Shown here: piece by piece, positions 16,540 to 34,120 of the stretch
How positions within the stretch are numbered: the first letter of the stretch is position 1
Layout of the letters: every line of letters starts with the position of its first letter
IMG/VR virus record: IMGVR_UViG_2778261504_000010
Span: 1-47,426 of that record
Source: a virus
Taxonomy: Duplodnaviria > Heunggongvirae > Uroviricota > Caudoviricetes
Direction: 5' to 3' (one strand)
Length of the DNA stretch: 47,426 nucleotides
Program-made: the position numbers and the translations under genes
The notes under the pieces: model-generated
Told to the model about the DNA's origin: nothing
The model's database searches: none
The model's input: the letters and a program-made list of their open reading frames with translations, nothing else

Positions 16540-17091
16540 TCAGTCAATCACACGCGCAAAATAGCGGTTTGCGGTGTTCTCCAGCTCGTCGATGTCGTCC
16601 TGCACAAGCTGAAGGAAGGGACGCGCGGGCATGTTGACCGTATACGCTCCGACCGTTGCGCTCTGTACAAAATTACTGTTGCGCTTTTTCACAAAGCGGC
16701 TGCTGACGCTGCCGTTTTTGTACTGTTTAAAATACAGGTTCTGCGTCCGTGCCTGATGGCGGATTTCGCCGCCTTCGTTGTGGATACGGGCGTAACGGAC
16801 GTTTGTCCCGACCGTGGCCTCGTTATTGTTAACCGCAGAGCGGATACTGGCAGCCAGTCGCCCGGACTTCTGAAGGATTTGCCCGGGGCCGCGTCGCTTC
16901 GCATAAGCCGGACTCCAGCCCATCCATTTCGGGCGACCCTGTTGTTCAAAGTTAGTCTCAACCGCATCCAGCATGGAACCCGCAAGTGCCGTCATCAGGT
17001 CGCGCCGGTCCTTCACGGAACGAATCAGTTTCCCCAGCGTGGTGTTATACGCGCTTAAATCAATCTTAATATCCAGTTTACCTGTGCTCAT
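16540..17091 (-). CDS. virion morphogenesis protein (Mu G-like)
   Basis: 183-aa ORF after F-like gene. Confidence 0.65.
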   Translation of the reverse strand: MSTGKLDIKIDLSAYNTTLGKLIRSVKDRRDLMTALAGSMLDAVETNFEQQGRPKWMGWSPAYAKRRGPGQILQKSGRLAASIRSAVNNNEATVGTNVRYARIHNEGGEIRHQARTQNLYFKQYKNGSVSSRFVKKRNSNFVQSATVGAYTVNMPARPFLQLVQDDIDELENTANRYFARVID

Positions 17092-19836: not shown

Positions 19837-19839
19837 TAA

Positions 19840-21498
19840 TTACCATCCTCCTGAACCAAAACGCCCGCCACGGTCACGCCCGCTGCTGCGTGGGGTGTGA
19901 ATCTGAAATTTTGCGCTGCGCGATACCGCCAGCGTCCACAGCATGTGCAGACAGTCTGGGCCATCATCGTGGTCGGCTTTGGGGTAGTGGCGCAGCTGGT
20001 CAATCAGCGTCTGATGTGCCGGACTGATACGAATCAGGCCGTTGGCCATATGCGGCTGAAGGGATTCAATACGCAGCGCCTTATCCTCCAGCGGGATGAC
20101 CGGCAGCGCCGGAACCGGTACGCCCAGCGCCGCCGAACGCTCAACCAGCACGGTACGCAGAAACTCCTGAAACTGGACGGACTCAAACGACCAGCACAGA
20201 CAGTGGTATTCCCGCTGATACTTAATCACGTCTTCGATAAGTTTATTCGGCAGACGCCGGCGGATATCGGCTTCAACCACATCCAGAATGCCGGTAAAAC
20301 GGTTAAAGCCCCCCACGAGAATGGCCGACGGGTCGCGGTTTTTGTTTTTCTTCCCGAGACTGGGGTCAACAGCACCATAAAACACCCATTCATCAAGACG
20401 GTTAACCCAGAATTTAATGCAGCCCGCAAACAGCGCGTCTTCACCGCTGACCGGGTCGTTCTGGTACTCAGAATCAAAGGTGTCGTGACCGTCACGGACA
20501 CGGATTTTCATCAGCGCCAGCAGGGGACGCGCCGCCCATGACACCACCGACCCGGCGAGCATATCGGCTTCGTTCTGCTGATAAAGTGCCTCCGCCGCTT
20601 CCGGCTGTTTGTTGCGGATGAGTTCTTCCCACTCGTCCCACAGCTTCATATTGGCAGGCCACTGAATGACGGCCTTAAAACGGGCCGTTTTCCACATCGG
20701 GTTATTCAGCGTGCGCGACAGTACGGAGTCGTAATGCAGGATGGTCCCGATATAAATAATATCGGTTTTACCGCCAGCCTCGCCCAGCGGCATCACGGTT
20801 TTGGTAAGCCAGTCATGTAGCTTGTCGCGCTGCTCCGGGTTACGCACCATCTCGTCGTTCTCGATGTCGTCGAGGATGACCAGGTCAGGACGGTACGGGC
20901 CGTGGCGCAGACCACGCAGTTTTTTACCGCTACCGGCGACGGTCACCTTGATATTGTTGGCCGTGACGATGGTCCCCATACGCCAGACGCGCCCCCGTCC
21001 GCACACTTCCGGGAAATCGTTTTTTAAACGGGGGTTAAATTCCAGTTCAGCCTTGATGGCTTCCAGCATCGGATAAGCCTGGTCGATACTGTCCATAATG
21101 ATGACCGGGTAATGCTTAATGGCCCGGATAATGATCCACAGGGTAAACAGCTGAGTCACCAGCGTGGATTTTGCTTCACCACGGGGCGCGGCGATGGCGT
21201 CGTTCTCCGGGTCCGGGCTTGCCACAACCTGTGGCAGACGGCTGAACAGGTATTTATGCAGCTCACTTTTTGCCGGGTTGCGGACGTAGTGCGGGAAATA
21301 GTTTTCGACAAAATAATCGTAGCCCGTCACCGGGTCACAGACTGCCGCCCGGCGTGCCTGTGTGGCCTGCGGGTTAACATCGAACCCCAGACATTCAGCC
21401 TCGATGGTCTGGCGGAGGTTGGCGATGTACTCCTGTAAGCCTTTCTGAAACTCTTTAATGGAAAGTTTACGTTTTGCCACGTCACACCTGGTATACAA
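19840..21498 (-). CDS. terminase large subunit (Mu gp28-like)
   Basis: 552-aa ORF; position before portal. Confidence 0.85.
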   Translation of the reverse strand: MYTRCDVAKRKLSIKEFQKGLQEYIANLRQTIEAECLGFDVNPQATQARRAAVCDPVTGYDYFVENYFPHYVRNPAKSELHKYLFSRLPQVVASPDPENDAIAAPRGEAKSTLVTQLFTLWIIIRAIKHYPVIIMDSIDQAYPMLEAIKAELEFNPRLKNDFPEVCGRGRVWRMGTIVTANNIKVTVAGSGKKLRGLRHGPYRPDLVILDDIENDEMVRNPEQRDKLHDWLTKTVMPLGEAGGKTDIIYIGTILHYDSVLSRTLNNPMWKTARFKAVIQWPANMKLWDEWEELIRNKQPEAAEALYQQNEADMLAGSVVSWAARPLLALMKIRVRDGHDTFDSEYQNDPVSGEDALFAGCIKFWVNRLDEWVFYGAVDPSLGKKNKNRDPSAILVGGFNRFTGILDVVEADIRRRLPNKLIEDVIKYQREYHCLCWSFESVQFQEFLRTVLVERSAALGVPVPALPVIPLEDKALRIESLQPHMANGLIRISPAHQTLIDQLRHYPKADHDDGPDCLHMLWTLAVSRSAKFQIHTPRSSGRDRGGRFGSGGW

Positions 21499-21532
21499 AT
21501 ATCAGACGGCCCGGAAGACCGGGCCGCTGTGG

Positions 21533-22036
21533 TTAACTGAAATTATCCTCAAGCTCTTTAGCGAAGCCTTCGAGCACCTCAAGAAACGGGGCATACTGTG
21601 CCGGGTGACGCTCCTTGATGAACGCGCCGAGCCGCTGCACCACTTCCAGTGCCGTGGCGAGCCGGTCGGTTTCCGGCAGGATTTTTTTACTGCTGGCCAC
21701 CGCCTTACTGAGACTGTCAGACAGACTCGCCAGCAGTTCGACGGACTCCTGCGGCGGGATGTCCGGGTTCTGGTTCAGCCGTTCAAGCGTCGTCTGACAC
21801 TTCACCACCAGACTGATAAGCACGGTGCGGGCGACACTTTCCAGCCCGTCACCGGCGAGCGCGTGCGCGGCCCGCAGCTTGTCCCAGTCGTCGCCGTTCT
21901 TCATCGCCTGCGTTTTCCAGCGCCGTGCGGTGTCGTGCGGCACGGCGTACTTCATTGCGACGATATCCAGCGGAAGCTGGTCAAAGATGTACCCGTTACG
22001 GACTTTGTCCCTGATATCCTGTGACCACGCCATCAA
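21533..22036 (-). CDS. terminase small subunit-like protein (Mu gp27-like)
   Basis: 167-aa ORF immediately upstream of large terminase. Confidence 0.6.
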   Translation of the reverse strand: MMAWSQDIRDKVRNGYIFDQLPLDIVAMKYAVPHDTARRWKTQAMKNGDDWDKLRAAHALAGDGLESVARTVLISLVVKCQTTLERLNQNPDIPPQESVELLASLSDSLSKAVASSKKILPETDRLATALEVVQRLGAFIKERHPAQYAPFLEVLEGFAKELEDNFS

Positions 22037-22353
22037 ACGCCCTTCCGGGTATCTGAAACCGTTGCGCCATCAGGTAGTTCGGTGACTGCAAATACAGGCA
22101 TTCCGGGATGGCGGATATCCTCAATCATTTCCAGCATGGACTCGCCAAACCATTTCAGCTGTGCTGCCTTGCGGGCGTCCTGGTAATAAATCAGATAACG
22201 GTTTTCACCATCTGCATACTGGGTACGGGCTTTAATTTCCCCGCATTCTCCGCTGACGTGCAAAGCCACAACCTGCGTCAGTCCGAACTTAAAGGGACGC
22301 CCGGGAACAGCGGCTTCCGTCAGTGCAATCGCGGTGTTTTCTTTTTGTTTCAT
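22033..22353 (-). CDS. hypothetical protein
   Basis: 106-aa ORF between lysis cassette and terminase. Confidence 0.4.
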   Translation of the reverse strand: MKQKENTAIALTEAAVPGRPFKFGLTQVVALHVSGECGEIKARTQYADGENRYLIYYQDARKAAQLKWFGESMLEMIEDIRHPGMPVFAVTELPDGATVSDTRKGV

Positions 22354-22374
22354 TTGTGCAAAACCTTAAAAAAA

Positions 22375-22557
22375 TCAGTTCTGTGAGCACTGCCGGATGC
22401 CGTCAATAATCCGGCAGACCTGCGCCGCCGCGTCAAACAGCTGTCCCGTTCTGTTAATGTCTGTGCATCCCACCGGAAGCAACATCATCAGAAACAGGGC
22501 CAGAACACAGCGCGCGGCTTTACGTGGCGTTCTGTGGGTCCAGTAACTTCTGTTCAT
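22375..22557 (-). CDS. small lipoprotein, candidate spanin
   Basis: 60 aa, hydrophobic N-terminus with LPVGC lipobox-like motif, directly downstream of endolysin. Confidence 0.4.
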   Translation of the reverse strand: MNRSYWTHRTPRKAARCVLALFLMMLLPVGCTDINRTGQLFDAAAQVCRIIDGIRQCSQN

Positions 22558-22570
22558 AACCCGTCCCGCA

Positions 22571-22951
22571 TCAGCGTTTTAACTGGAAATGAGGCCCGTC
22601 TTTCAGCGTTTTCCAGTCTCCGCCCCATTCGATGGCGACACTCAGCTCTGCGGCAGCCTGTTTAAAGGCTCGGGCGATTTTTTCGTATAACGGCCAGTCC
22701 CATGAAATGGAGCTACCAACGTAAGCCACGACATCAACGGCATCGCCAGTAAGGTGACGGCTGTTCATGGTCTGGCTCTTACCTTCAGCGACAAGTTGTT
22801 TCTGACGTTCTTTCGTGCGTAAACCTTCGGTAATACCAAAATCGACGTCCGACAACGCCAGCGCACGGCGTACAACCGCCACCAGTTGTGGCTTTACGCC
22901 AGCCAGATTTTTCTCGCTACGTTGACTGAAACGGAATTTTCCCGACATATT
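22571..22951 (-). CDS. endolysin, peptidase M15-type
   Basis: Start taken at internal MSGKFRF whose ATG overlaps the upstream stop; motifs SRHLTGDAVD and WGGDW recalled as typical of M15 peptidases. Confidence 0.65.
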   Translation of the reverse strand, partial: NMSGKFRFSQRSEKNLAGVKPQLVAVVRRALALSDVDFGITEGLRTKERQKQLVAEGKSQTMNSRHLTGDAVDVVAYVGSSISWDWPLYEKIARAFKQAAAELSVAIEWGGDWKTLKDGPHFQLKR

Positions 22952-23235
22952 CACCTCCGCAGTAACGAAAGGATTTTTGACAAATTCCCGTGCGCCCACA
23001 CGATAAGCGCACAGAAAACCAGATTCAGCGCCACAACCAGCCAGCTGGAGTGCGTGTATGTACCGGACAGCCAGCGAAACGGGATGATGATGTAGCCGAG
23101 CATCAGCCAGTACGCCAGCCAGGTAATCATCGGTTTATGCGCCGCACCGTGGCGGCGATACACAAACAACCCCAGCACAATGGCGAGACACAGCCAGACG
23201 TTCACGATACCGGCAAGGCTACTTTCCATTTCCAC
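22951..23235 (-). CDS. small membrane protein (holin/antiholin candidate)
   Basis: 94 aa, two to three hydrophobic helices, upstream of endolysin. Confidence 0.5.
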   Translation of the reverse strand: MEMESSLAGIVNVWLCLAIVLGLFVYRRHGAAHKPMITWLAYWLMLGYIIIPFRWLSGTYTHSSWLVVALNLVFCALIVWAHGNLSKILSLLRR

Positions 23236-23611
23236 CCCCTCCGCCGCGCAGTCTGGAAAACAGGCCGAACAGCGATGAAATTTCCTGTTGATAAAGAAAG
23301 GTCAGTATCTTGATGGATAACGCCGAGACACCGACCGCACACAATGCATCGAGCGGTTTGTCGTTGTAGTGGGTCAGCCACTGCATCAGTGACGCAGCCA
23401 CTCCAGCCCCCAGAACACCAACCACAAACGCGACGAGCAGGTGAATAGCCATTCGCCAGACCGGTATTTCTTTCTGCTGCGTGACAACAAAAAGCGCCCC
23501 GGCAAACGCGCCCACCACGACCCCAAAATCGGTATTGGTGAGAAGACCAAACACACTGGCACCACCGATGGTGACTGCCACAGCTCCGCCGCCTGATAAG
23601 GGTTCAGACAT
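23219..23611 (-). CDS. membrane protein (holin candidate)
   Basis: Start at MSEPLSGGG with AGGAG RBS; three hydrophobic segments; Gly-rich C-terminus. Confidence 0.5.
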   Translation of the reverse strand: MSEPLSGGGAVAVTIGGASVFGLLTNTDFGVVVGAFAGALFVVTQQKEIPVWRMAIHLLVAFVVGVLGAGVAASLMQWLTHYNDKPLDALCAVGVSALSIKILTFLYQQEISSLFGLFSRLRGGGGGNGK

Positions 23612-23793
23612 GAGTTTCTCCTGTAAATCTGAGCCACTGACGGCCCGTAAATAACACCCTGTCAAAGGCACAGAAGCCTTTTGCAGGGCGCTATCCCTTA
23701 AGGTGCCTTGTGGTCTGAGTGGACAGGGTAAACGGTCTGGTGTGGTGGGTACTGCTGGGGGAGTTCAGCACCCCGCGGCGGCGGGGTGATAAA

Positions 23794-24072
23794 TCAGAAG
23801 CGGGAAATAGAATCCGGCGTAATAAGAGGTTTATTACAAAGCGGAGCAGAGGCGTTCGCCTTTTCCATCGCTGCGCGCATCTCGTTTTCGCTGGCGATGA
23901 TGTCAGCAATGGCACACTGTAACGCTTCTTCCTGAACAACCATATCCGGTTGTTCGGCCATTCGGTTTAGTTGGTTGGCCAGATTTTTCATATAAGCGAA
24001 GCGGCGTCCGGCAGCATCCCGTGCCTGCTCTGAGTAGGCCGTATACTCGCCAAGTGCCGTATAGTTGGTCAT
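23794..24072 (-). CDS. hypothetical protein
   Basis: Start at MTNYTALGEY preceded by AAGGAG; no recognised motif. Confidence 0.4.
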   Translation of the reverse strand: MTNYTALGEYTAYSEQARDAAGRRFAYMKNLANQLNRMAEQPDMVVQEEALQCAIADIIASENEMRAAMEKANASAPLCNKPLITPDSISRF

Positions 24073-24097
24073 AAGTGTCTCCTTTTTCTGAGGCCCA

Positions 24098-24565
24098 TTA
24101 ATCAAAAAGCCCCACCTGGGTGGGGCTTGTCAGCGAAGTCTGTTTTTGTCGTCGGTGTATCAACTGCCATGCGTACCGGTCTGAAATGCCGTAACGGGGA
24201 CAGAGCAGTGCCAGCGCCTGCCGGTGTGAGCATCCGTCTTTTACATGCTGCTGTAAATCAGCCATAAAACGGGTGTTACGCAGGGCACGTAATGCATGAT
24301 CGCAACGGGGAATGTAAAACGGAGCACCGCCAAGAAAGCGGATCAGTTTGTTGATTTCGTCTTCGGTCAGCACATCATGTAACAGGGCATGGACGCCGCC
24401 GGTGCGTTCAGCGTGTGCGCCGGTTTTACCGCTTAACGTCACGCCACCAAAAGAACGGATTAACCGGGTCAGGGCGGGGAAGCCAATCACGCTAATCAGT
24501 TGTTGCACGGAGTCGGGCAGCAGTGCCTGCGCATCGCGAAGATCTGTTTCACTGAAGGTCTGCAT
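24098..24565 (-). CDS. Mor/C-family transcriptional activator
   Basis: 155 aa with C-terminal helix-turn-helix-like segment GISDRYAWQLI; located just upstream of lysis and late genes. Confidence 0.6.
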   Translation of the reverse strand: MQTFSETDLRDAQALLPDSVQQLISVIGFPALTRLIRSFGGVTLSGKTGAHAERTGGVHALLHDVLTEDEINKLIRFLGGAPFYIPRCDHALRALRNTRFMADLQQHVKDGCSHRQALALLCPRYGISDRYAWQLIHRRQKQTSLTSPTQVGLFD

Positions 24566-24620
24566 GATGGCGTCTCCGGTAGTAACTTACTGTTATTATA
24601 GCCATACATGATCGCCTGTA

Positions 24621-24660
24621 CAGACCACAAAAAAGCCCCTGCAAGGCAGGGGCTAAACTA
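24621..24660 (-). terminator. rho-independent terminator after the secreted-protein gene
   Basis: Stem gcccctgc/gcaggggc (24635-24653) followed on minus strand by TTTTTTG. Confidence 0.55.
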
Positions 24661-24664
24661 AGTC

Positions 24665-25141
24665 TTATTTAGTCAGGTCTAGAATAACCAGGCCTTTTCT
24701 TGATTCTATTTGCTCTTTACCAAAAACAAACGAATCAAAACAATCCATACGATATTCTTTAAACTGATTTCTTGAACGTTCCAGAAACTGCCTGTCATCC
24801 CTGATAACGTTAGACCAGTAATCCTGTAGCTGGTTTTTCATTTTTATGCAGGAACCATACACAGGATCAAGCGGGTCGTCCCCCAGTTTACTGGCCTGTT
24901 CATCCAATTGTTTTAGTCCTTTTTTGATATTCTTCCACTCTTCAATATTTCCCTGCTGATACTGCGATGCAGCTTCTGGCATAGCGTAATAAAGTTTTCC
25001 ACTTTCCCGAAGCATCTGTTCAGCCAATGGCTTCATATCCTGATAACGTTTCAGTTCCTTTTGCGCCTGTTCCTCTGTCTGTGCCAGCACAGAACAAGAG
25101 AAAATAACCCCTACTAAACAAAACAACCATTTTTTCATCAT
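24665..25141 (-). CDS. secreted protein of unknown function (AT-rich cargo gene)
   Basis: 158 aa; N-terminal signal peptide MMKKWLFCLVGVIFSCSVLA; visibly AT-rich compared with neighbours. Confidence 0.6.
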   Translation of the reverse strand: MMKKWLFCLVGVIFSCSVLAQTEEQAQKELKRYQDMKPLAEQMLRESGKLYYAMPEAASQYQQGNIEEWKNIKKGLKQLDEQASKLGDDPLDPVYGSCIKMKNQLQDYWSNVIRDDRQFLERSRNQFKEYRMDCFDSFVFGKEQIESRKGLVILDLTK

Positions 25142-25536
25142 TGATTTCTCCTTCTTGAATCTTTAACCAGCGCCACCATCACCCCAAAAAGCTGTTCATC
25201 CGTCAGCCATTCGATCACATGTTGCTTATACATGTGAGATGCCAGTCCTTCTGCATACGCCCAGGAACGACCTGCATCAGCCAGCAACGCTTCAATTTTG
25301 GATAATACTGATTTTCTGCTCATTGCAACATGAGGGCGGCGACCTTTACCAGCGGGTGCCTTGCGCGGGAATCCCTGTTCGTGCATGTATTCCCGGATGA
25401 TGCGCAGTTCATCGAGATTGCAGCGTGTGGTGCTGGTTTTACCGGTCAGGCGGGCCAGCGTCTGGCGATAAAGGGCATCATCCCACCCCAGATACGCCTG
25501 ACCAGCTTTAATGGCCCCGATCATCTTTTTCAGCAT
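25138..25536 (-). CDS. GemA-like protein (Mu gp16 family)
   Basis: Start taken at internal MLKKMIGAIKAGQAYLGWDD; resembles GemA family as recalled. Confidence 0.55.
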   Translation of the reverse strand: MLKKMIGAIKAGQAYLGWDDALYRQTLARLTGKTSTTRCNLDELRIIREYMHEQGFPRKAPAGKGRRPHVAMSRKSVLSKIEALLADAGRSWAYAEGLASHMYKQHVIEWLTDEQLFGVMVALVKDSRRRNQ

Positions 25537-25786
25537 GTTTGTTATCCTCAAAACGCACGGTAAAACGTGAAACGCCAATCCCTGACAAGAACGCAGCGGC
25601 ACGGTCAAGAGACAACCACGTCTTGTAATCGCCACGGCGTTCCTGTAGAAAATAGGACACACCGGCGCGGCGATTCACAGCGAAGAGGTGATACACACCA
25701 CCGAACCGCTGCACGACGAACTCATCCACGCCACCGCTTTCAGCCTGTTGCCGAAAGGCTGCCATTCCGATTTGTTCAATCTTCAT
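25508..25786 (-). CDS. hypothetical protein
   Basis: ORF-track start at 25795 is a TTG; first ATG at 25786. Confidence 0.35.
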   Translation of the reverse strand: MKIEQIGMAAFRQQAESGGVDEFVVQRFGGVYHLFAVNRRAGVSYFLQERRGDYKTWLSLDRAAAFLSGIGVSRFTVRFEDNKHAEKDDRGH

Positions 25787-25940
25787 AATGACCAAAACAC
25801 TACTTTTGGCAGACCAAAAAACATGTTTTGGTCTGCATTTGATTACTGTTTAAACAACCCGCGAAATCAGGAACGTCGAGTTACGGTGATGGCTTTCATC
25901 GTGTTGTTGCTCCGTGATTCAGAAAATTTCATGCCGGGCC

Positions 25941-26351
25941 TCAGTATGTGAAATAGACAGTTGCCACGCCGTTATAGTGATCAAACGACACGGCGTTTAC
26001 CTCATAACTGGCCGGGAGCTTCGAGCCAAGAACGTATCCGGGCCACGTTTTCCATGGAATTTCTCTGCTCTCACTGTCGCCATATACCGTACATCCCAGT
26101 GAGCCTACAGCTTCATAAGAACGCTTACCGCACGTTATGAACCCCAGATGTTGCTTACTGCCCTTAACAGAAATCGGGAGAGCACTGGCTGATGCGTTAG
26201 CAGCATCCCGCTCCTGTTGGCTTGCGATATTCGCAGAGTTCGCAGCAGCTGCGGCAGCAGTGGTTGCAGCGGTAGATGCCACAATAACTGCTGAAGCCTG
26301 CGCCTGCTGGGTAATGGTCAGCAATGCCGCCACAAAAATCATTTTCTTCAC
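25941..26351 (-). CDS. secreted protein of unknown function
   Basis: 136 aa; signal peptide MKKMIFVAALLTITQQAQA then Ala/Thr-rich low-complexity linker and Cys-containing C-terminal domain. Confidence 0.6.
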   Translation of the reverse strand: MKKMIFVAALLTITQQAQASAVIVASTAATTAAAAAANSANIASQQERDAANASASALPISVKGSKQHLGFITCGKRSYEAVGSLGCTVYGDSESREIPWKTWPGYVLGSKLPASYEVNAVSFDHYNGVATVYFTY

Positions 26352-26546
26352 CTGGTACCTCCTTTACATACTGTCATCGTACTGCGTACCCTTTCTTCCG
26401 CCTGTTCTGTGACGCGGTAGGCTTACGATTTACGGTAAAAGCCACCTGACCAAATGGATGGAGCACCGCTGTCTTATGGTTGCTGATAACCAGCGACACC
26501 ATACACACAGGTCGCTGTAAAAGAAGTCGTATTGCTTTACGGTTTT

Positions 26547-26861
26547 TCATCTGATTATTCCCCCTGAAACCAGCCCTGAACGGATTACTGTTTTTGCAAT
26601 ATGTGCCCGTAATTGCTGTGTTCCGTGATATTTGATTGCCACATCGCGTAACTTATTAACCAGTTCCCTGACCTGATGCTCCTTTGCTCCCGGTGTCACC
26701 GGAACGCCCCCTGTTTTCCGATACTCCTGAAGCTCCAGCAGAGACTGCCGTAAGAGCGTCCACCATTCGCTGTCTGCAACCGGCCCCATATCAAGCGCTC
26801 TGTCAGCATCGGCAATCAGTCTGGTCAGGCTCTTATCGCTTATTCTGGTTTGCTGGTTCAC
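26547..26861 (-). CDS. hypothetical protein
   Basis: 104-aa ORF in early region. Confidence 0.4.
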   Translation of the reverse strand: MNQQTRISDKSLTRLIADADRALDMGPVADSEWWTLLRQSLLELQEYRKTGGVPVTPGAKEHQVRELVNKLRDVAIKYHGTQQLRAHIAKTVIRSGLVSGGIIR

Positions 26862-27148
26862 TGCGCCGCCTCCTGCTCATTTTTTTCACTCCGGTATACC
26901 AAAATCACGACATCTCCCCGGGTAATTACGCGTGCCGGGTCGCCCTGTTGCATACGGTCAATATCAAAAGCGTCATTAAACGCATTTAGTGCCTTCACGC
27001 GCTTGTCTTTGCGGCGACGTTTTTCACATTGCTTAAAGAACGAAGAAATCAACCACCTGAATGACATAAAAGTGATATAGCCATAACCAATAAGCGCCAG
27101 ACCTGTATTCATGGCTACATCTATCGTTATCGTTTTATCAATGACCAT
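26858..27148 (-). CDS. small membrane protein
   Basis: 96 aa with one hydrophobic helix (LALIGYGYITFMSFRWLISSFF). Confidence 0.4.
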   Translation of the reverse strand: MVIDKTITIDVAMNTGLALIGYGYITFMSFRWLISSFFKQCEKRRRKDKRVKALNAFNDAFDIDRMQQGDPARVITRGDVVILVYRSEKNEQEAAQ

Positions 27149-27368
27149 TGCCAGCCTCCTGTTTTGCCACTTTAAACGCCCGTAACATCGGGACAGTCTT
27201 GCCGGTGATAACAGTTCTCATTAAAAGACCGCCACCGCTCTCATGGTGCACTTCAGGGGCTACAAACAACGCCGCATCCACAACCCGGTTATAGCGGCGA
27301 AACTCCCAGAGCCAGCAGGTAACAATGATTTTTGCTTTAGTCCCATAGTTATAAAATTCAATATTCAT
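27138..27368 (-). CDS. hypothetical protein
   Basis: 76-aa ORF, overlapping start/stop with neighbours. Confidence 0.35.
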   Translation of the reverse strand: MNIEFYNYGTKAKIIVTCWLWEFRRYNRVVDAALFVAPEVHHESGGGLLMRTVITGKTVPMLRAFKVAKQEAGNGH

Positions 27369-27592
27369 TTGCAGTTAAACCTCCTTTTGTGACGTTCTAC
27401 AGCGGCTTTCATGGCGTTGTGTACGGTTCTTTTAATAATCCGGTGTCCCGCACTGTCATAGAACCGCCACCGGGAAGCCCCCGGATATTTAGGGAACTCA
27501 ACCGCCGCGCTACCGTCATTCATCCTGTATTCGTGGCGTTCTCCGGGAGGCTGGTATATTGCTTCGGTAACACTGAGAAGTTTAAAAGCCAT
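27365..27592 (-). CDS. hypothetical protein
   Basis: 75-aa ORF. Confidence 0.35.
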   Translation of the reverse strand: MAFKLLSVTEAIYQPPGERHEYRMNDGSAAVEFPKYPGASRWRFYDSAGHRIIKRTVHNAMKAAVERHKRRFNCK

Positions 27593-27594
27593 CG

Positions 27595-28305
27595 TTATCC
27601 CCTCCCCAGTGCCAGCGGTCTGTTGCTCTGACCATTAACCCCCTGATGCAGCCTGGCGTTCTTCCCGGCGATAAAACCGGCAGTAGCGGCAAACTCTGCA
27701 CCCCGACACGCTTTAGCTGTGCGCATATCCCCGTCGCGCAGTCCCTTAGTGCTGTGCAGGTTCTTTCTGTAAAGCTCAAGGCGGCTTTTTTCTTCCGGGG
27801 AGACGTCATACACCGCAATGACATCACGGGCACCAAAGACCCAGCCTTCGCAGAACTGGTCGCCACGGGCCACCCGCGTGGACGGACCGCAACGTTTGCA
27901 GTGTTTATCCTGATATTTTTTACGTTCAGCCATCATCTGACGGGAAAGCACATCAAACGCGTATGCCGCAATTTCCGGGCGGCTGTCAGGACCATAAAAA
28001 CGAACGTAACGTTTGAGTGAACCAGAAGCCCGGTATTCACCTGAGATGTAACACTCGACGCCGAAGGCTTTACATACCAGGTCACACAGGATGTGCATAT
28101 AACGCGGCGGCGTACTGGCATCACTCGGCGCACCCGCGCTGGCAGCTTCCTGAATGTCGAACAATTCCGCGTCGTTTTCGCTGATGCCATGCTGGCGCAT
28201 ATAAGCCTGGGCTTTTGCAATAGCGTTAGCGGCTTCTTCCGGGCTTGATGTTCCTCTGGCAAGGCGTAACAGTTTTTTGATTTTGGCAATGTATTTATCT
28301 TTCAT
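27595..28305 (-). CDS. DUF2786-like phage protein
   Basis: 236 aa; N-terminus KIKKLLRLARGTSSPEEAANAIAKAQ resembles the motif of that family as recalled; Cys-rich centre. Confidence 0.45.
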   Translation of the reverse strand: MKDKYIAKIKKLLRLARGTSSPEEAANAIAKAQAYMRQHGISENDAELFDIQEAASAGAPSDASTPPRYMHILCDLVCKAFGVECYISGEYRASGSLKRYVRFYGPDSRPEIAAYAFDVLSRQMMAERKKYQDKHCKRCGPSTRVARGDQFCEGWVFGARDVIAVYDVSPEEKSRLELYRKNLHSTKGLRDGDMRTAKACRGAEFAATAGFIAGKNARLHQGVNGQSNRPLALGRG

Positions 28306-28392
28306 GGTTGTAACTCATTGTTTTTGATCAACTTATAACCACAAAACACTTGTCATAATCGCTGCCCCAACATACCAATCAGGAGTTAAAAA

Positions 28393-28611
28393 ATGATTGA
28401 TGATGAAATTGCGGCAGCAATTACTGCTAACAAAGCTGCGTGGAGCTTTCTGGTTAAACAGCTTTCAGAAAATGGCTGTCTGAACCTCAGCGCCCTGGAT
28501 TCTGAATTACGCAACTTCCAGCACGGCCTTCAGGAACGTGGGGAGTTCGTTCTGGCTGCGGCGCTGGATGAACATCTGCTGTCGATTGAGAACTGGTCGC
28601 AAGACGATTAA
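28393..28611 (+). CDS. small acidic protein encoded antisense to the early operon
   Basis: 72 aa; RBS AGGAG 7 nt upstream of ATG; followed by a terminator hairpin. Confidence 0.5.
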   Translation: MIDDEIAAAITANKAAWSFLVKQLSENGCLNLSALDSELRNFQHGLQERGEFVLAAALDEHLLSIENWSQDD

Positions 28612-28688
28612 AACAAACGATTGTCAGATTAATTTCGCGGGCGAACTTTTTTTGCTTAGCGATATTCATAAATAAACTCTCTCTGATT

Positions 28689-28730
28689 CAGGCGTAAGCC
28701 AGCCCCGGCGGGTTTACGCCTGTTTTAAAT
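28689..28730 (+). terminator. rho-independent terminator
   Basis: Stem caggcgtaa/ttacgcctg (28689-28722) followed by TTTTAAAT. Confidence 0.55.
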
Positions 28731-28751
28731 AACAATTGAAAACAAATTAAA

Positions 28752-28943
28752 TTAATGCGGTGCTTTCAGTGTTTCGATTTTAACGAAATAAGGCTCGACA
28801 TTAATTTCAACCACACAACCACATTTAAAATCTCTGGCGGGTGCAACAGTTTTTACCACCCGACCACCACGCACCGCCCGGTGTGCAATGTGCATGAAAC
28901 GAGTACCTGGCGGATATAGCTGATTAAAGCGTTTCGCGTTCAT
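28752..28943 (-). CDS. hypothetical protein
   Basis: 63-aa ORF. Confidence 0.3.
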   Translation of the reverse strand: MNAKRFNQLYPPGTRFMHIAHRAVRGGRVVKTVAPARDFKCGCVVEINVEPYFVKIETLKAPH

Positions 28944-29157
28944 GAGGCGGCTTCCATCCTTTCAGGTGAGCATTAGCACAGAACTCTGCCCGGTGTTCTG
29001 CCCAGATACGACGCAGGGTGCTACACGGGCTTTGCGCTGCCTTACGCCACAGTTTTTCTGCCTCGTCATAATCGCCACGTTGTTCTGCTCTGGATGCACC
29101 CAGCGAATACGCCGCGCAACTATTTCCGGCTCTGTACTCTTTGATATCCTGATGCAT
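28924..29157 (-). CDS. hypothetical protein
   Basis: Start taken at MHQDIKEY just after the upstream stop; the longer ORF-track version overlaps the upstream gene by 110 nt. Confidence 0.35.
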   Translation of the reverse strand: MHQDIKEYRAGNSCAAYSLGASRAEQRGDYDEAEKLWRKAAQSPCSTLRRIWAEHRAEFCANAHLKGWKPPHERETL

Positions 29158-29158
29158 G

Positions 29159-29803
29159 TTAAACCCCTGCAATATCAAGCGGGATTGAGCGGTATTCAGC
29201 AGAATCACCGACGCGCTCATACACGCGGATATAGCTTCTGCTGCCAACCACCTGGACGGCTTCACCAATCAGTTTCATGGCGTTATCCCAGCGTTCCTCC
29301 GTAATATCGAGACGACGCAGAGCCAGAACGCGCCCGGTGTTAATGTTGCCTTCCTTGTCCGTGCTGAATGCCTCGCTGATGATGGCTTTAATTTCAGGGC
29401 GTGCTCCTTCCGTCCAGTCAGCCAGACAGTCATCAATCAGTGCCTTCGCGGTCTGAATGCGTTCATCAAGCGCGATACGGTCCTGCATGGCGCGCTGAAT
29501 CTTGTAACGTCCGTCAAAGCTGTAAAGCGTGATATTCCCTTTTTTACCGCCTTTCACAGCGCCGTATTTCTCCGCCGACAGGTCAATAAACGCCTGAATA
29601 TCACCAAACGCACGCAGTTTCAGTTCACGCAGTGAGGCGGAGGCAGCAATCACCATCTCCACAAGCTCACCGACCAGCTGCTCGCGGTCACGGTCAATAT
29701 CTTTGATAAGGCTTTCAGGTGTCATTACGCCACGGGCATCCACCCAGTAACCTTCAGGCGCTTGAGTTTTCGTGTATTGCTTAACTTTATTTTCAGTCGT
29801 CAT
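29159..29803 (-). CDS. DUF3164-like phage protein
   Basis: 214-aa ORF; family assignment from memory only. Confidence 0.45.
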   Translation of the reverse strand: MTTENKVKQYTKTQAPEGYWVDARGVMTPESLIKDIDRDREQLVGELVEMVIAASASLRELKLRAFGDIQAFIDLSAEKYGAVKGGKKGNITLYSFDGRYKIQRAMQDRIALDERIQTAKALIDDCLADWTEGARPEIKAIISEAFSTDKEGNINTGRVLALRRLDITEERWDNAMKLIGEAVQVVGSRSYIRVYERVGDSAEYRSIPLDIAGV

Positions 29804-29832
29804 AATTAAATTACCTCAGTGATATTTACAGA

Positions 29833-30048
29833 TTAATGTGTGTTATGCGCGCAGGGTTCCACGCCAACAGAAAATAAATCAACGACGTTAAATTCTTTAT
29901 TAAGAGTTTGATTCATTACCTCCCATAACCGTTGTCTTACACCGACCTCTTCATCCGTAAATCCTTTTTTATCAATAGCCCCCATACTCCTGACACGAAG
30001 CGTGCCGTTTTCATCGGTATAGATAATTACTTCTAACTTAACCGCCAT
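29833..30048 (-). CDS. hypothetical protein
   Basis: Start taken at MAVKLEV. Confidence 0.35.
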   Translation of the reverse strand: MAVKLEVIIYTDENGTLRVRSMGAIDKKGFTDEEVGVRQRLWEVMNQTLNKEFNVVDLFSVGVEPCAHNTH

Positions 30049-30229
30049 GTTTTTCTCCTTTGAAATCAAACGATTTAAAAATAATTTCGTTCATAAAACA
30101 GTGAGTTTTTATGATAATGTCGGAAACCTGCTCTCCCGTGACATCAGGCGGCAACTGATACGTCGCGACGGTTTTCTCCGGTTTACCTGGCCTGTCCAGG
30201 CTGAAAGTTAATTCAAGCTCCAGTGACAT
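30038..30229 (-). CDS. hypothetical protein
   Basis: 63-aa ORF. Confidence 0.3.
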   Translation of the reverse strand: MSLELELTFSLDRPGKPEKTVATYQLPPDVTGEQVSDIIIKTHCFMNEIIFKSFDFKGEKHGG

Positions 30230-30239
30230 TTTTCACCTC

Positions 30240-30491
30240 TCAATGCATTTGTGTCTCTTGAGGAATATACGGACATCCCTGTGCCAGTTGTTTCACGTAG
30301 TCATGGTAGATTTGCAGATCAAGCCGTTCATTTCCGTGTTTCTCCTTCAGAACCGTACAAATAGCACCGACAGTCCCCAGAGTTCTTGCTGCTTCTTCGA
30401 GTGTGGCATTGTCGCCATTTTCCACCCGAATAAGGTTATGGCACTGGTTATTACCCAGGTCGGTAAATACTATTGTTAATTTCACGCTCAC
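30240..30491 (-). CDS. hypothetical protein
   Basis: 83-aa ORF. Confidence 0.35.
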   Translation of the reverse strand: MSVKLTIVFTDLGNNQCHNLIRVENGDNATLEEAARTLGTVGAICTVLKEKHGNERLDLQIYHDYVKQLAQGCPYIPQETQMH

Positions 30492-30506
30492 TTTTAATTC
30501 CTCGTT

Positions 30507-30746
30507 TTATTGCCATACGACGGTGCAGCCGTCGATACAGGACGTTTTAACCACACGACGCAGGCCGCTGAATGTCTGGATGATTTCCGTTACCGGCCAT
30601 ACAGGACCCCCCACGGGCGGGCAGGCATAAACCACAGGTAAACGGTGATGCTGTCCCGTTACACGGCCACCGGTGGTGTGGATGGCCACACGGGCACGGG
30701 AACGGACGGCGTTAATGGTCTGCTTGTCCATCGTCTTGTTCTCCAT
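30507..30746 (-). CDS. hypothetical protein
   Basis: 79-aa ORF; start overlaps stop of MuB-like gene. Confidence 0.35.
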   Translation of the reverse strand: MENKTMDKQTINAVRSRARVAIHTTGGRVTGQHHRLPVVYACPPVGGPVWPVTEIIQTFSGLRRVVKTSCIDGCTVVWQ

Positions 30747-31639
30747 CAGTGAATTAACATTTCTGCGAAATCATCAATAGCCTGCACACTGACCGGCGCA
30801 TCGCTGATATCACAAATCCGGTAGACCCCACGCACAAGTTTAAACAGGCGTCGGGCATTGCCCCGTGAGCGTGTGTAAAGTGCTTCACAGATTTCAGGCG
30901 CTGCTGCTTCCGGCATCAGTTCGGCGGCTATCTGGATGAAATCCTTCTGCGCCAGCGTATCGCCGAGGTCCAGCGAAAGAGCCACCCGACTGTATAGCTG
31001 CGCGAACTCCCCACGATTGCCTTTAAGATTAATCAACAGGCGCGGCATACCAGCCAGGGCAACACCGACGCCCGCCTTGTCATGCAGACGACGCAGAACT
31101 TCCAGCGCACGATAGGGGAGCAGTTCGGCTTCATCCACCATCAGCAGGCGACCGGAGTCACGCAATTCGTGTACGCAGGCATTAATCAGTTCGTGAATAT
31201 TGCCGCGAACCTTTACCCCCAACTGGCGGCACAGTTCCTCCAGCAGTGTCCTGGCTGTATAGCCCGGGTCAGCCTCAATCAGTATTGCGTCCCGGTTTCT
31301 GGCGGCGTATTCGCGCAAAATCATTGTTTTGCCAAGACCTGCCGCGCCATACAACACGCTAATTTCACACTCCAGATGAGCATAGGCCAGCGCCTCCAGC
31401 CCTTTGGCGGCCATACCTGTAGTCACAAAACTTGCTTTTACACGCCGGTTGTTTTCTTTTTCCCGTTCACGGCTGACAAAGGCAGAAATTCGCTCTTCGA
31501 TATCAGTGATATCGCCCTGATATTTACCCTGCAAATACTGGTTGATAACGGCGCTGCTACGACCAATAGCACGGGCAACGTGGGTCTGCGTATAGCCGCG
31601 ACGGGCCATTACGTCATTTAATTGCGTAATTAAACTCAT
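30746..31639 (-). CDS. MuB-like transposition ATPase
   Basis: 297 aa; N-terminal HTH-like segment then Walker A GAAGLGKT; immediately downstream of transposase. Confidence 0.8.
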   Translation of the reverse strand: MSLITQLNDVMARRGYTQTHVARAIGRSSAVINQYLQGKYQGDITDIEERISAFVSREREKENNRRVKASFVTTGMAAKGLEALAYAHLECEISVLYGAAGLGKTMILREYAARNRDAILIEADPGYTARTLLEELCRQLGVKVRGNIHELINACVHELRDSGRLLMVDEAELLPYRALEVLRRLHDKAGVGVALAGMPRLLINLKGNRGEFAQLYSRVALSLDLGDTLAQKDFIQIAAELMPEAAAPEICEALYTRSRGNARRLFKLVRGVYRICDISDAPVSVQAIDDFAEMLIH

Positions 31640-31656
31640 ATTAAATACCTTTTAAA

Positions 31657-33702
31657 TTAACGGTTGTTTGTGCCGTCTTTCTTTAAATTGCGGTCACGCT
31701 CGGATGCAAAGAAATAAAGTTCTTCTTTTTTCTTTTCCTCCTTACGCTCCAGACCAAATCCAAAATTAAAGTCAGGTCTCTGCGTAATAGCCGGGGTAAG
31801 CTCGCGTTTAGCCTCTTCGATTTTCTGCGTGGCCCGTGCAATGCGGCCTCTGGCGCGTTTCTCCTGCTGCTGTTCGATAACAGCTTTCGGGAACGCATCA
31901 ACCTTATTACCGTTCCAGATGGCATCGCAGATATAAGAACCGTCCATCCGCCTGACAATCACGCTGTTTGCGTCGTGAATGTCGTAACAAACCCTGACTT
32001 CATTTCCGTGCTCTGCTGCCAGTTCTGTGGAGAAATAGATGTTTCTGAATAACACCACTTCACCGCGTCGCACCGTGCAGATGCTTTCCGGTCGGAACAT
32101 TTCATGCAGTTCTTCCGGCGACAGCATGTCGATTTCAGCCTTTTGCTCTTTTATCAGTTTCCGGCGATACGCTGCCGGGCTGTAATGTTCGCCATCCTCT
32201 TTGCGGGGAAGGCTGCTGTGTGGCCGGTTGTTATACCGTTTCACCTCCAGCTCTATTGCGGCCATCAGTTGCTCAAAAGTGGGGACTTCTCCCATCGCTT
32301 TAACCTGCCGCTTTGTCAGCTCTTTCCCTTTGTGGGTGGCCTTAATGGCTGACTGTGTGATGCGTTGCTGCATCATCACCGTTTCCTTGTCTGCATTTTT
32401 TGAGCAGTACGTCTGGAAACTCAGGGCCACATCTTTGGGTATTCCTTTGTTTGCCCGTTCTATTACCCCGCGCCCCTGCGGGTTACCAGGTGTCCCCGTG
32501 TGATGCTCCACACCCAGCCGGGGCAGAATCCCGGTAATATCGGCATCAAGCACCCGGTTTTTTTCACCGCCCCCGTTATCGGAGTAATAAATCAGCGGTA
32601 TTCCGTGTTGTGACATGCCATGACGCAATGCATCAGCAACGGCTATCACGTTCTCCGACAGGGACAGCGACCAGCCCACAATAAAGCGTTGCCCCGCATC
32701 CATAACCAGCGTCACTTCTGGCCGGAATGTATTCCCGGTGGCAGGGTTGAATGCCATCAGTTTCATACAGTGACCATCCCCGACCCATACCGCATTAACC
32801 GGTAATGTGCTCCAGTCGCGCCGCACAAAGGGATTGAGCGAACGCCAGGCTGAACCGGTGGAGCGGAAACGCTCTTTAACAATCACCGGGACGCTGCTTA
32901 ACACCCGTCTTACTGCGTGAACTGAAGGCAGTGCCGCCAGCATTCCCGCATCGTTCGCGTGTTTTTCATGCCACCAGGCTGAAAACTCGCGATACGCATA
33001 TTCAACGGTCGGGCGCTTCCATGAGCGATAGAACATAAAGAAATCGCTCAACCACCAGACCTGCTCCCACGGTGTTCCCTTATGATGACCGGGAGCCAGT
33101 AACGCCAGTAACTGATTGGCATCACCGCGCGCCATCAGCCAGGCGGAATACCATTCCTGTAAACTCCCTGTACTGACGCCAGTTCGCTTACCCTGTCGGG
33201 CATTGGCGGTATTACCGGCCACAATAACGCGCTCGGGCAAAGCCCCCTGGCGGATACCATCAACGATGTGTTTTATCGCTGCTGTCCTGGACATTCCTGC
33301 GTATTCACGCAGTTTATGCACTTCGGTAGCCAGCAATATCCGCGCATCAGCGATGGCCTTTTGCTTGTCGGTCAGTGCCTGGACTTCGCGTAATGCCAGT
33401 TCCGGGCATTTGACCATCACTTCCAGTTCATCACGAACGGTGACGTTCTTAACTGCCTTCTGCTCAACCACAACGGGCAGTTGTGTATCTTCCAGAATTT
33501 GCTGGGCTAGACGTTGGTGTAAAGCTTTCTGCACCTCCTCTGGAAAACTATCAATATGGTATTCAAAAGTAACACCTTTCACGCCAGCTCGTTGGCGGCT
33601 AACCCACCGTTGACGCTTTGCCATTCTAATCAGTGAGCTATTGTGTTTGGGGATACCAGCAATGCCCTGAAGTTCATTGAATGAATACCATTGGGATATC
33701 AT
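31657..33702 (-). CDS. MuA-like DDE transposase
   Basis: About 680 aa; N-terminus resembles the Mu winged-helix DNA-binding domain; start taken at MISQWYSF whose ATG overlaps the ner stop. Confidence 0.85.
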   Translation of the reverse strand: MISQWYSFNELQGIAGIPKHNSSLIRMAKRQRWVSRQRAGVKGVTFEYHIDSFPEEVQKALHQRLAQQILEDTQLPVVVEQKAVKNVTVRDELEVMVKCPELALREVQALTDKQKAIADARILLATEVHKLREYAGMSRTAAIKHIVDGIRQGALPERVIVAGNTANARQGKRTGVSTGSLQEWYSAWLMARGDANQLLALLAPGHHKGTPWEQVWWLSDFFMFYRSWKRPTVEYAYREFSAWWHEKHANDAGMLAALPSVHAVRRVLSSVPVIVKERFRSTGSAWRSLNPFVRRDWSTLPVNAVWVGDGHCMKLMAFNPATGNTFRPEVTLVMDAGQRFIVGWSLSLSENVIAVADALRHGMSQHGIPLIYYSDNGGGEKNRVLDADITGILPRLGVEHHTGTPGNPQGRGVIERANKGIPKDVALSFQTYCSKNADKETVMMQQRITQSAIKATHKGKELTKRQVKAMGEVPTFEQLMAAIELEVKRYNNRPHSSLPRKEDGEHYSPAAYRRKLIKEQKAEIDMLSPEELHEMFRPESICTVRRGEVVLFRNIYFSTELAAEHGNEVRVCYDIHDANSVIVRRMDGSYICDAIWNGNKVDAFPKAVIEQQQEKRARGRIARATQKIEEAKRELTPAITQRPDFNFGFGLERKEEKKKEELYFFASERDRNLKKDGTNNR

Positions 33703-33914
33703 AAGTATCTCTCCGGCCATATAGTTTCTGGCGACTCGCCAAGAGCTTCAGCGATAATTTTTTCTCCACGCGGATACGGCTTATCAAGAGCATTTTTCAA
33801 AGTGTACGGGGATAACGAGTTAAGCCTCCCTAAACCTGAAAGTGATAACCCTTTTTTTCGTAATTCAGCAATGACATCAGCTCGATGCCATCCGGTTCTT
33901 TTCTTGTGCTGCAT
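33699..33914 (-). CDS. Ner-like DNA-binding regulator
   Basis: 71 aa; WHRADVIAELRKKGLSLSGLGR...LKNALDKPYPRGEKIIAEALG closely resembles Mu Ner/Nlp. Confidence 0.8.
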   Translation of the reverse strand: MQHKKRTGWHRADVIAELRKKGLSLSGLGRLNSLSPYTLKNALDKPYPRGEKIIAEALGESPETIWPERYL

Positions 33915-34120
33915 TTCATGCCATCCTTATGAGTTAACTAGATAGCTACCTACACAAGTAGCTATAAGGCTACTTCGCAACAATAATGTGATTGCGTTGT
34001 GATTGCAAGCAAAAGCAACCACAAAAAATAGAATTTTTCTGCGCACTCTTGTTGCTTATTGATATTTAAGGTTTTTTGTGATTGCCGAAATATTGAGTCT
34101 GGCAATCATAAGGAGAGGAT
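33915..34120. promoter_or_regulatory. divergent promoter/operator region between ner and the c-like repressor
   Basis: 206 bp AT-rich; GTGATTGC at 33988, 33999, 34078; 7-bp inverted repeat gattgcc(34080-86)/ggcaatc(34101-07); palindrome tagctac...gtagcta (33942-33965). Confidence 0.55.

What the first reader, a model, noticed from the sequence alone, without database searches (positions are those of the whole stretch)
25941..26546. Second secreted-protein gene with Ala/Thr-rich linker, followed upstream by a 195-bp non-coding region
The 136-aa ORF has a signal peptide, a low-complexity linker and a Cys-containing C-terminal domain. The 195 bp upstream (26352-26546) has no ORF and could hold its own promoter or a small RNA. 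Two exported proteins in a Mu-like early region is unusual.
Basis: partly seen in the sequence, partly recalled or inferred. Interest (0 to 1): 0.55.

Follow-up and report, generated by a model that had tools for sequence, protein, structure and literature searches.

The report
Exported phage protein plus missed small gene
The 136-aa gene is a real, already catalogued phage accessory gene for a small exported protein of unknown function, and the "non-coding" DNA upstream of it is a conserved 58-aa phage gene, so the locus is ordinary tightly packed early-operon DNA of a Mu-like prophage.

Summary
The ORF at 25941-26351 (minus strand, GTG start, strong Shine-Dalgarno) is real. It encodes an exported protein with a signal peptide, an Ala/Ser/Thr-rich linker and a 70-aa C-terminal domain with two invariant Cys. 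It matches PHROG 8805 (unknown function) over its full length and is 97% identical to annotated E. coli hypothetical proteins.

The "195-bp non-coding region" is not ORF-free. A 58-aa gene fills 26374-26550, and its ATG overlaps the stop of the upstream gene (ATGA). It belongs to PHROG 1380, is annotated as a CDS in phages TL-2011b and RCS47, stays intact in about 70 viral contigs, and is under purifying selection (pN/pS 0.3-0.5).

Exported proteins are normal in this prophage lineage. All Mu-like relatives examined carry the 136-aa gene, and most homologues lie in lambdoid, P1-like or rV5-like accessory arrays.

Function is unknown: Pfam, NCBIfam, PADLOC, PDB sequence and fold searches gave nothing. 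My best inference, at about 0.3, is an early-expressed periplasmic protein that blocks superinfection or protects the envelope. Low interest.

The parts
25941..26351 (-). Gene p136: 136-aa exported phage accessory protein (PHROG 8805), stop codon included
   Evidence: ORF. PHROG 8805 matched 1-136/136, E 2.7e-82. 97% identical to annotated E. coli hypothetical proteins. No Pfam, NCBIfam or PADLOC family.
26295..26351 (-). Codons 1-19: predicted Sec signal peptide MKKMIFVAALLTITQQAQA, with predicted cleavage after AQA
   Evidence: Read from the sequence. Basic N-end plus hydrophobic core kept in 96 of 96 homologues. Cleavage itself is inferred, not shown.
26154..26294 (-). Codons 20-66: Ala/Ser/Thr-rich low-complexity linker, variable in length across the family
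   Evidence: Linker length 31-69 aa across homologues by a crude estimate, with indels among close alleles. pN/pS 0.38. AF2 predicts a helix at low confidence, pLDDT 50-64.
25944..26153 (-). Codons 67-136: conserved globular C-terminal domain with invariant Cys74 and Cys87 (TCGK...LGC)
   Evidence: Invariant columns in alignment A4. pLDDT about 90, with 6 strands and 1 helix. pN/pS 0.12. No fold match in PDB or BFVD except a homologue.
26352..26373 (-). 22-nt spacer between p58 and p136, carrying the Shine-Dalgarno AAGGAGG (26358-26364)
   Evidence: Sequence. The junction TAAAGGAGGTxCCAGGTG is conserved in the Mu-like relatives.
26374..26550 (-). Gene p58: 58-aa very basic protein MKNRKA...QNRRKKGYAVR (PHROG 1380).
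   Evidence: ORF. PHROG 1380 E 3.4e-20. Annotated CDS in TL-2011b, RCS47 and RefSeq. 68 viral loci with ORFs nearly always intact. pN/pS 0.29-0.49 with an excess of third-position changes.
26547..26861 (-). Upstream 104-aa gene whose TGA overlaps the p58 ATG (ATGA), which suggests translational coupling
   Evidence: Mosaic PHROG matches: N-half phrog_14672, C-half Ea22-like families.
25787..25940 (-). The true non-coding gap, downstream of p136. It holds a vestige of a truncated neighbour gene (25916-25932), then a conserved hairpin (25809-25836) and GTTTTGGTC repeats before the 92-aa gene (ATG at 25786).
   Evidence: Alignment with lambdoid, P1-like and Av-05 contexts. Hairpin and conservation.

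Best explanation
Shown (confidence about 0.9): the interval holds two co-oriented, tightly packed protein-coding accessory genes in the early (transposase-side) operon of a Mu-like prophage, not a gene plus a regulatory gap. p58 (26374-26550) starts on the stop codon of the gene before it. p136 (25941-26351) follows 22 nt later behind a strong ribosome-binding site. Both are therefore most likely read from the long early transcript that also covers A, B, GemA and Mor. Both belong to a pool of small genes that E. coli phages exchange. p136 and its first few downstream bases also occur in lambdoid, P1-like and rV5-like phages, and p58 is the only stretch of this prophage shared at more than 90% DNA identity with deposited phages.

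Inferred (confidence about 0.3): p136 is exported by the Sec pathway and its signal peptide is removed after AQA. The 70-aa C-terminal domain is stabilised by a Cys74-Cys87 disulfide and held on a flexible Ala-rich spacer. It acts in the periplasm early in lytic growth by binding an envelope or incoming-phage component. The effect would be to block superinfection or re-adsorption, or to protect the envelope until lysis, in the manner of T4 Spackle or T5 Llp. p58 is a small nucleic-acid-binding-type basic protein of unknown role.
For: Gene structure and coding:
- ORFs and the ATGA overlap.
- PHROG 8805 and 1380 matches, and CDS annotation in relatives.
- Purifying selection on p58 and p136.
- No promoter-like site on either strand in 25400-27200, against 2.0 expected by chance.

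Mu-like early context:
- GemA and Mor Pfam hits.
- Transposase and AAA ATPase upstream in the 96.5%-identical UMNF18 prophage.

Export features:
- N-terminal features and two Cys conserved in the 96 homologues.
- A homologue annotated with a signal peptide.

Gene mobility:
- Only about 9 of 59 viral loci with a p136 homologue are Mu-like. The rest carry Ea22-like and DUF4752 neighbours.
- Homologues also sit on P1-like plasmids, in Av-05 and in 45-kb phages.
- Homology continues about 35 nt past the p136 stop into the start of the neighbour gene.
- p58 is the sole megablast match of window 14000-34000 in 50,697 phage records.

Early-lytic timing is inferred from position: the early operon in Mu-like phages, arrays with Ea22-like neighbours in lambdoid prophages, and small-gene clusters in a virulent phage. 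The analogy rests on T4 Spackle, an early periplasmic protein that inhibits the gp5 lysozyme (PMC7677548), and T5 Llp (PMC9586334).
Against: No homology or fold similarity to any characterised exclusion protein, lysozyme inhibitor or other known family.

Export, signal-peptide cleavage, the disulfide and the timing of expression are all inferred from sequence and position. A weak or non-sigma-70 internal promoter cannot be excluded by a consensus scan.

In three other phage groups p136 is followed by a phrog_6026/368 gene that is lost here. p136 may normally work with that partner.
Confidence: 0.35

Rival explanations
1. One reading: 26352-26546 is non-coding DNA that carries a dedicated promoter or a small RNA for or next to the exported-protein gene.
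For: A single pairwise comparison, window against TL-2011b or RCS47, shows near-neutral substitutions: 10 non-synonymous against 2 synonymous codons, and 9 against 5. On its own this would fit non-coding DNA.
Against: A 58-codon ORF fills the stretch and belongs to PHROG 1380. Five divergent allele types all keep the frame and share protein motifs. In the larger sample pN/pS is 0.29-0.49. There is no promoter-like site, no Rfam match, and folding z-scores are -1.5 and -0.6.
Confidence: 0.03
2. p136 is a lysogenic-conversion or host-fitness factor. It would be expressed from the prophage and act on the host envelope or on the animal host, as the lambda Bor and Lom morons do, rather than during lytic growth.
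For: It is a small exported protein carried mainly by prophages and phage-plasmids of enteric bacteria. A hairpin lies downstream.
Against: No own promoter was found, and the gene is packed into the repressed early operon. Homologues exist in a virulent rV5-like phage, Av-05, which has no lysogenic state. On the coding strand the hairpin is not followed by a U-run, and it belongs to the upstream region of the next gene.
Confidence: 0.2
3. p136 normally works as a pair with the phrog_6026/368 protein encoded just downstream in lambdoid, P1-like and rV5-like phages. In this Mu-like lineage, where that partner is truncated to a vestige, p136 is a leftover with reduced or no function.
For: The p136 + phrog_6026/368 adjacency appears in three unrelated phage groups. 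Only the first roughly 17 nt of the partner survive here.
Against: All Mu-like relatives examined keep an intact p136. The C-terminal domain has pN/pS 0.12 across alleles that include the Mu-like ones.
Confidence: 0.1
4. p136 is a lysis-timing or lysis-accessory protein, for example an antiholin-like periplasmic sensor or a spanin-like element, or a virion or morphogenetic component.
For: It has an N-terminal hydrophobic segment plus a periplasmic domain. In 45-kb phages the homologue lies a few small genes upstream of the large terminase gene.
Against: In this window it lies upstream of gemA and mor, about 2 kb from the holin and endolysin genes and outside the late operons. Its neighbours in the 45-kb phages have no lysis annotation. 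PHROG assigns no structural or lysis category. The window protein has no lipobox and no C-terminal membrane segment.
Confidence: 0.07

Closest known systems
PHROG 8805 (phage protein family, unknown function), e.g. RefSeq WP_000738915.1 and UniRef 'Prophage exported protein'
   Same: Full-length match, 1-136 of 136 profile positions, E 2.7e-82. 97% identity to annotated E. coli proteins.
   Different: Nothing of note. The window protein is an ordinary member. The family has no assigned function, no Pfam or NCBIfam model and no solved structure.
PHROG 1380 (small basic MKNRK proteins of lambdoid, P1-like and phiV10-like phages), e.g. AEW24572.1 of TL-2011b and CDN90842.1 of RCS47
   Same: Same length and same N- and C-terminal motifs, with 91-93% DNA identity over exactly the ORF.
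   Different: The window has one copy, whereas 70 of 76 loci carry a tandem pair. The closest relative, UMNF18, has two.
T4 Spackle (periplasmic inhibitor of the gp5 tail lysozyme) and T5 Llp (lipoprotein that blocks FhuA): early-expressed exported superinfection-exclusion proteins (PMC7677548, PMC9586334)
   Same: Small size, a signal peptide, an early-gene position and a periplasmic location are shared or inferred. This is a 'works like' analogy only.
   Different: There is no sequence or fold similarity; neither protein appears among the PDB matches. p136 has no lipobox, unlike Llp. No exclusion phenotype has been tested.
Lambda-type morons (Bor, Lom): accessory genes with their own promoter and terminator, inserted between essential phage genes
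   Same: An accessory, horizontally exchanged gene for an exported protein, sitting in a variable slot.
   Different: No own promoter was detected and the gene is translationally packed into an operon. It lies in the early operon, not the late region. Homologues also occur in a virulent phage.
Semi-essential early region of phage Mu (between B and gemA/mor), a block of small non-essential genes (from my own knowledge of Mu genetics)
   Same: Same position relative to the transposase, B-like ATPase, GemA and Mor genes, and same strand.
   Different: At the DNA level this prophage type has no close relative among 50,697 deposited phages. I did not compare its gene content with Mu gene by gene.

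Membership tests
PHROG 8805 | Significant full-length match to the family profile | tested here: met
   E 2.7e-82, residues 1-136 on profile 1-136/136. A distant homologue from Klebsiella phage KLB16 also matches, E 1.6e-24.
PHROG 1380 (MKNRK small basic proteins) | Significant match to the family profile, with an ORF maintained under selection | tested here: met
   E 3.4e-20, residues 1-58 on profile 1-60/62. All allele types hit the same PHROG. pN/pS 0.29-0.49.
Sec (signal peptidase I) exported proteins | Basic n-region, hydrophobic h-region of about 10-15 residues, small residues at -3 and -1 (AxA) | tested here: met
   MKK / MIFVAALLTIT / QQAQA|SA, read from the sequence. The features are kept in 96 of 96 homologues by a rule-based scan. 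No SignalP-type tool was available.
Sec (signal peptidase I) exported proteins | Demonstrated export and cleavage | not testable with these tools
   Needs PhoA or BlaM fusions, or N-terminal sequencing or mass spectrometry of the mature protein.
Bacterial lipoproteins (signal peptidase II) | Lipobox [LVI][ASTVI][GAS]C at the end of the signal peptide | tested here: not met
   There is no Cys before residue 74 in the window protein. A lipobox-like LSAC exists only in the 134-aa phage-plasmid subfamily.
Morons (autonomous accessory transcription units) | Own promoter upstream and terminator downstream | tested here: not met
   No sigma-70-like site in 25400-27200. The gene lies 22 nt behind p58. 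The downstream hairpin lacks a U-run on the coding strand and is conserved together with the next gene.
Known superinfection-exclusion proteins and lysozyme inhibitors (Spackle, Imm, Llp, Cor, Ivy or Pli types) | Sequence or structural homology to a characterised member | tested here: not met
Known superinfection-exclusion proteins and lysozyme inhibitors (Spackle, Imm, Llp, Cor, Ivy or Pli types) | Exclusion phenotype when expressed alone | not testable with these tools
   Needs plating, adsorption and DNA-entry assays.
Rfam small RNAs or cis-regulatory RNAs in 26352-26546 | Covariance-model match or an unusually stable, conserved structure | tested here: not met
   No match in the stretch at E <= 1. 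Fold z-scores are -1.53 and -0.57.
Mu-like early (semi-essential) region genes | Location between the transposition genes and gemA/mor, on the same strand | tested here: met
   GemA and Mor Pfam hits at 25138-25662 and 24098-24565. Transposase and AAA ATPase are annotated upstream in the 96.5%-identical UMNF18 prophage.

The most novel reading that the evidence does not exclude
The 70-aa disulfide-bonded C-terminal domain of p136 could be a previously unrecognised fold. It would define a new family of early-expressed periplasmic anti-superinfection or envelope-targeting factors that four very different coliphage types (Mu-like, lambdoid, P1-like phage-plasmids, virulent rV5-like) exchange as a cassette. 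In that reading the adjacent MKNRK mini-genes, with conserved ends and variable middles, mark the recombination joints of that cassette pool.
Probability: 0.2. Interest if true: 0.45.

Novelty: already known. Interest (0 to 1): 0.15.

Why it matters
The main result is a correction. The apparent regulatory gap is a missed small gene, and the "unusual" exported protein is a routine, already annotated accessory gene, so this locus should not be pursued as a new regulatory element.

There is modest residual value. p136 is a compact exported protein with a well-conserved domain (pN/pS 0.12) and no recognisable relatives, and it is carried by temperate and virulent coliphages alike. That makes it a reasonable candidate for a plating screen for superinfection exclusion.

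The MKNRK mini-gene is also a striking example of a 177-bp unit shared at more than 90% identity among otherwise unrelated phages.

Tried and rejected
- Pfam, NCBIfam and PADLOC scans of p136, p58 and their neighbours found nothing for the two genes.
- AF2 with a shallow alignment of close homologues gave a poor model, pLDDT 51. A more diverse alignment gave pLDDT about 90 for the C-terminal domain.
- A PDB sequence-profile search found nothing.
- The all-against-representatives search gave 11 genuine small relatives. Its four long hits (P0078, P0082, P0083, P0084) are repetitive proteins 409-1052 aa long with 4-6 partial matches, and I discarded them as spurious.
- A weak 'Alanine_zipper' Pfam hint appeared in one member at E 0.29. 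I rejected it because distant members lack the Ala-rich stretch.
- I considered p58 to be non-coding or neutral after the first pairwise comparison, then rejected that with the larger sample.
- I considered a toxin-antitoxin reading of the tandem MKNRK pairs and rejected it, because the two copies are paralogues of one family.
- Literature searches by accession or PHROG number and for Mu-like early exported proteins found nothing relevant.
- The scan of species-representative genomes gave a single, probably mis-binned, contig.

Full report
**What is in the interval**

On the minus strand the ORF list shows a 136-codon ORF at 25941..26351. It also shows a 58-codon ORF at 26374..26550 and a 104-codon ORF at 26547..26861.

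The sequence shows three junction features:
- The 58-codon ORF starts with an ATG that overlaps the TGA of the 104-codon ORF (ATGA at 26550-26547), behind GGGGGA 8 nt upstream.
- Its own TGA ends at 26374.
- The 136-codon ORF starts with GTG at 26351, 6 nt after AAGGAGG (26358-26364).

**The 58-aa ORF is a real gene**
- It matches PHROG 1380 (E 3.4e-20).
- Megablast against 50,697 phage records finds exactly this ORF, and nothing else of the 1.2-kb query, at 91-93% identity in lambdoid phages TL-2011b and TL-2011c, in Stx2c phages and in P1-like phages. It is an annotated CDS there.
- In other Mu-like prophages the 136-aa gene is preceded by divergent alleles. These keep the same start (MKNRKA), a central [IV]SN[RH] motif and the same end (QNR[RW]K), but differ in between. 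All alleles hit PHROG 1380.
- A scan of viral contigs gave 68 loci. The ORFs are intact in nearly all, and 70 of 76 loci carry a tandem pair joined by an ATGA overlap.
- One pairwise comparison looked neutral. Across 16, 15, 7 and 3 distinct sequences of four allele types, however, pN/pS is 0.29, 0.29, 0.49 and 0.33, with an excess of third-position polymorphism in three of the four.
- In the same stretch there is no sigma-70-like promoter (0 found, 2.0 expected), no Rfam match and no unusual RNA stability (z -1.53 and -0.57).

**The 136-aa gene (p136)**

It matches PHROG 8805 over its whole length (E 2.7e-82). It is 97% identical to E. coli hypothetical proteins, including WP_000738915.1 in the UMNF18 Mu-like prophage, which is 96.5% identical to the window over most of the 1.2-kb query.

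A search of 1.84 billion representative proteins with the C-terminal part found only 11 genuine relatives. All are 109-134 aa with the same layout. Four further hits were long repetitive proteins, which I discarded. The alignment shows invariant G70, T73, C74, G75, C87, P104, Y116, V118, D124, T131, Y133, F134 and Y136, and a linker of variable length that lacks the Ala-rich run in the most distant members.

Among 96 distinct family members, all have a basic N-terminus and a hydrophobic core. Ninety-five have exactly two Cys in the C-terminal domain, and the linker spans 31-69 residues by a crude estimate. pN/pS is 0.50 for the signal peptide, 0.38 for the linker and 0.12 for the domain.

AlphaFold2 with the diverse alignment gives pLDDT about 90 for residues 68-136, with six strands and one helix, and a low-confidence helix for the linker.

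**Context**

The window is a Mu-like prophage read on the minus strand:
- GemA (25138-25662) and Mor (24098-24565) have Pfam hits.
- The UMNF18 relative has a Mu transposase and an AAA ATPase upstream, and holins, an endolysin and a terminase downstream.
- p136 sits in the same slot in all four RefSeq relatives inspected and in about nine IMG/VR contigs.
- The gemA-mor slot holds another exported protein: 158 aa here, or a 113-aa alternative with a signal peptide in strain GPEC349.

Exported proteins are therefore the rule in this lineage, not an oddity.

**p136 is mostly found outside Mu-like phages**

About 50 of the 59 viral loci lack the Mu-like neighbours; many carry Ea22-like and DUF4752 genes instead. 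Homologues also lie on 85-96 kb non-mobilizable P1-like plasmids, in the virulent phage Av-05 of the Vequintavirinae, and in 45-kb phages KW1E_UTAR and KLB16.

In the lambdoid, P1-like and Av-05 contexts p136 is followed by a phrog_6026/368 gene. In the window the homology runs about 35 nt past the p136 stop into the first roughly 17 nt of that gene and then breaks. This suggests p136 moved between these phage types as a cassette, and the junction here falls just inside the neighbour.

A scan of one genome per species found only one contig, probably mis-binned. The family is narrow and phage-borne.

**How it most likely works**

Shown: there are two packed coding genes with no detectable promoter of their own, lying in the early operon.

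Inferred:
- Transcription from the early promoter, and translation of p58 coupled to the upstream gene.
- Sec export of p136 with cleavage after AQA, and a disulfide between the two invariant Cys.
- A periplasmic binding role for the strongly constrained C-terminal domain, held on a flexible spacer.

All contexts point to early lytic expression: the Mu-like early operon, arrays with Ea22-like neighbours, and a small-gene cluster in a virulent phage. The best-known jobs of small exported early phage proteins are superinfection exclusion and receptor masking, as in T4 Spackle (PMC7677548) and T5 Llp (PMC9586334). I therefore rate that kind of role as the most likely, at roughly 0.3. Rivals are a lysogen-expressed fitness factor, a partner-dependent leftover, or a lysis or structural role.

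**Verdict**

Both genes are already catalogued and annotated as hypothetical, and nothing indicates a new kind of system. Interest is low.

Noticed in passing
window 26374-26550; L001:6233-6409; L002:3002-3366: The MKNRK mini-gene (PHROG 1380) is the only part of window 14000-34000 with a megablast match in 50,697 phage records. It usually occurs as a tandem pair of paralogues joined by an ATGA overlap (70 of 76 loci). Alleles share conserved ends and differ in the middle, and some have chimeric tails. The first copy in UMNF18 is unannotated in RefSeq.
   Followed up: partly
window 25787-25940: The real intergenic gap lies downstream of p136. It holds a vestige of the start of a phrog_6026/368 gene (ATGAAATTTTC..., 25916-25932). 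It also holds an 11-bp-stem hairpin (25809-25836) and GTTTTGGTC repeats just before the ATG of the 92-aa gene at 25786. The hairpin and repeats are conserved even in strain B1172, where the DNA further upstream differs. They could be an operator or a translational control element.
   Followed up: partly
window 24665-25141; L004:6234-6572: The slot between gemA and mor carries alternative exported-protein genes in different relatives: 158 aa here and in UMNF18, a 113-aa protein with a signal peptide in GPEC349 and B1172-type prophages, and nothing in strain 54214. The 158-aa protein has no family hit.
   Followed up: partly
window 26547-26861: The 104-aa gene upstream of p58 is a mosaic. Residues 1-50 match phrog_14672, and residues 59-95 match the C-terminal motif of several Ea22-like PHROGs. 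UMNF18 has only a 62-aa version.
   Followed up: no
P0071, P0085-P0107 (134-aa homologues, contigs of about 80-95 kb): A p136 subfamily on P1-like phage-plasmids, at about 48% identity, has a lipobox-like LSAC in its signal peptide. It may be lipid-anchored, unlike the window protein.
   Followed up: no
window 14000-34000: Apart from the 177-bp p58 gene, this Mu-like prophage has no megablast-level relative among 50,697 deposited phage genomes. Related prophages are nonetheless present in E. coli genomes: 226 of 5,426 genomes match some part of the 1.2-kb query.
   Followed up: no
L138 (JAFAFN010000164.1): The only hit among species-representative genomes is a 3.2-kb contig binned as an 'Actinomycetes' MAG that encodes an 88%-identical p136. 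It is most likely a mis-binned enterobacterial phage fragment.
   Followed up: no
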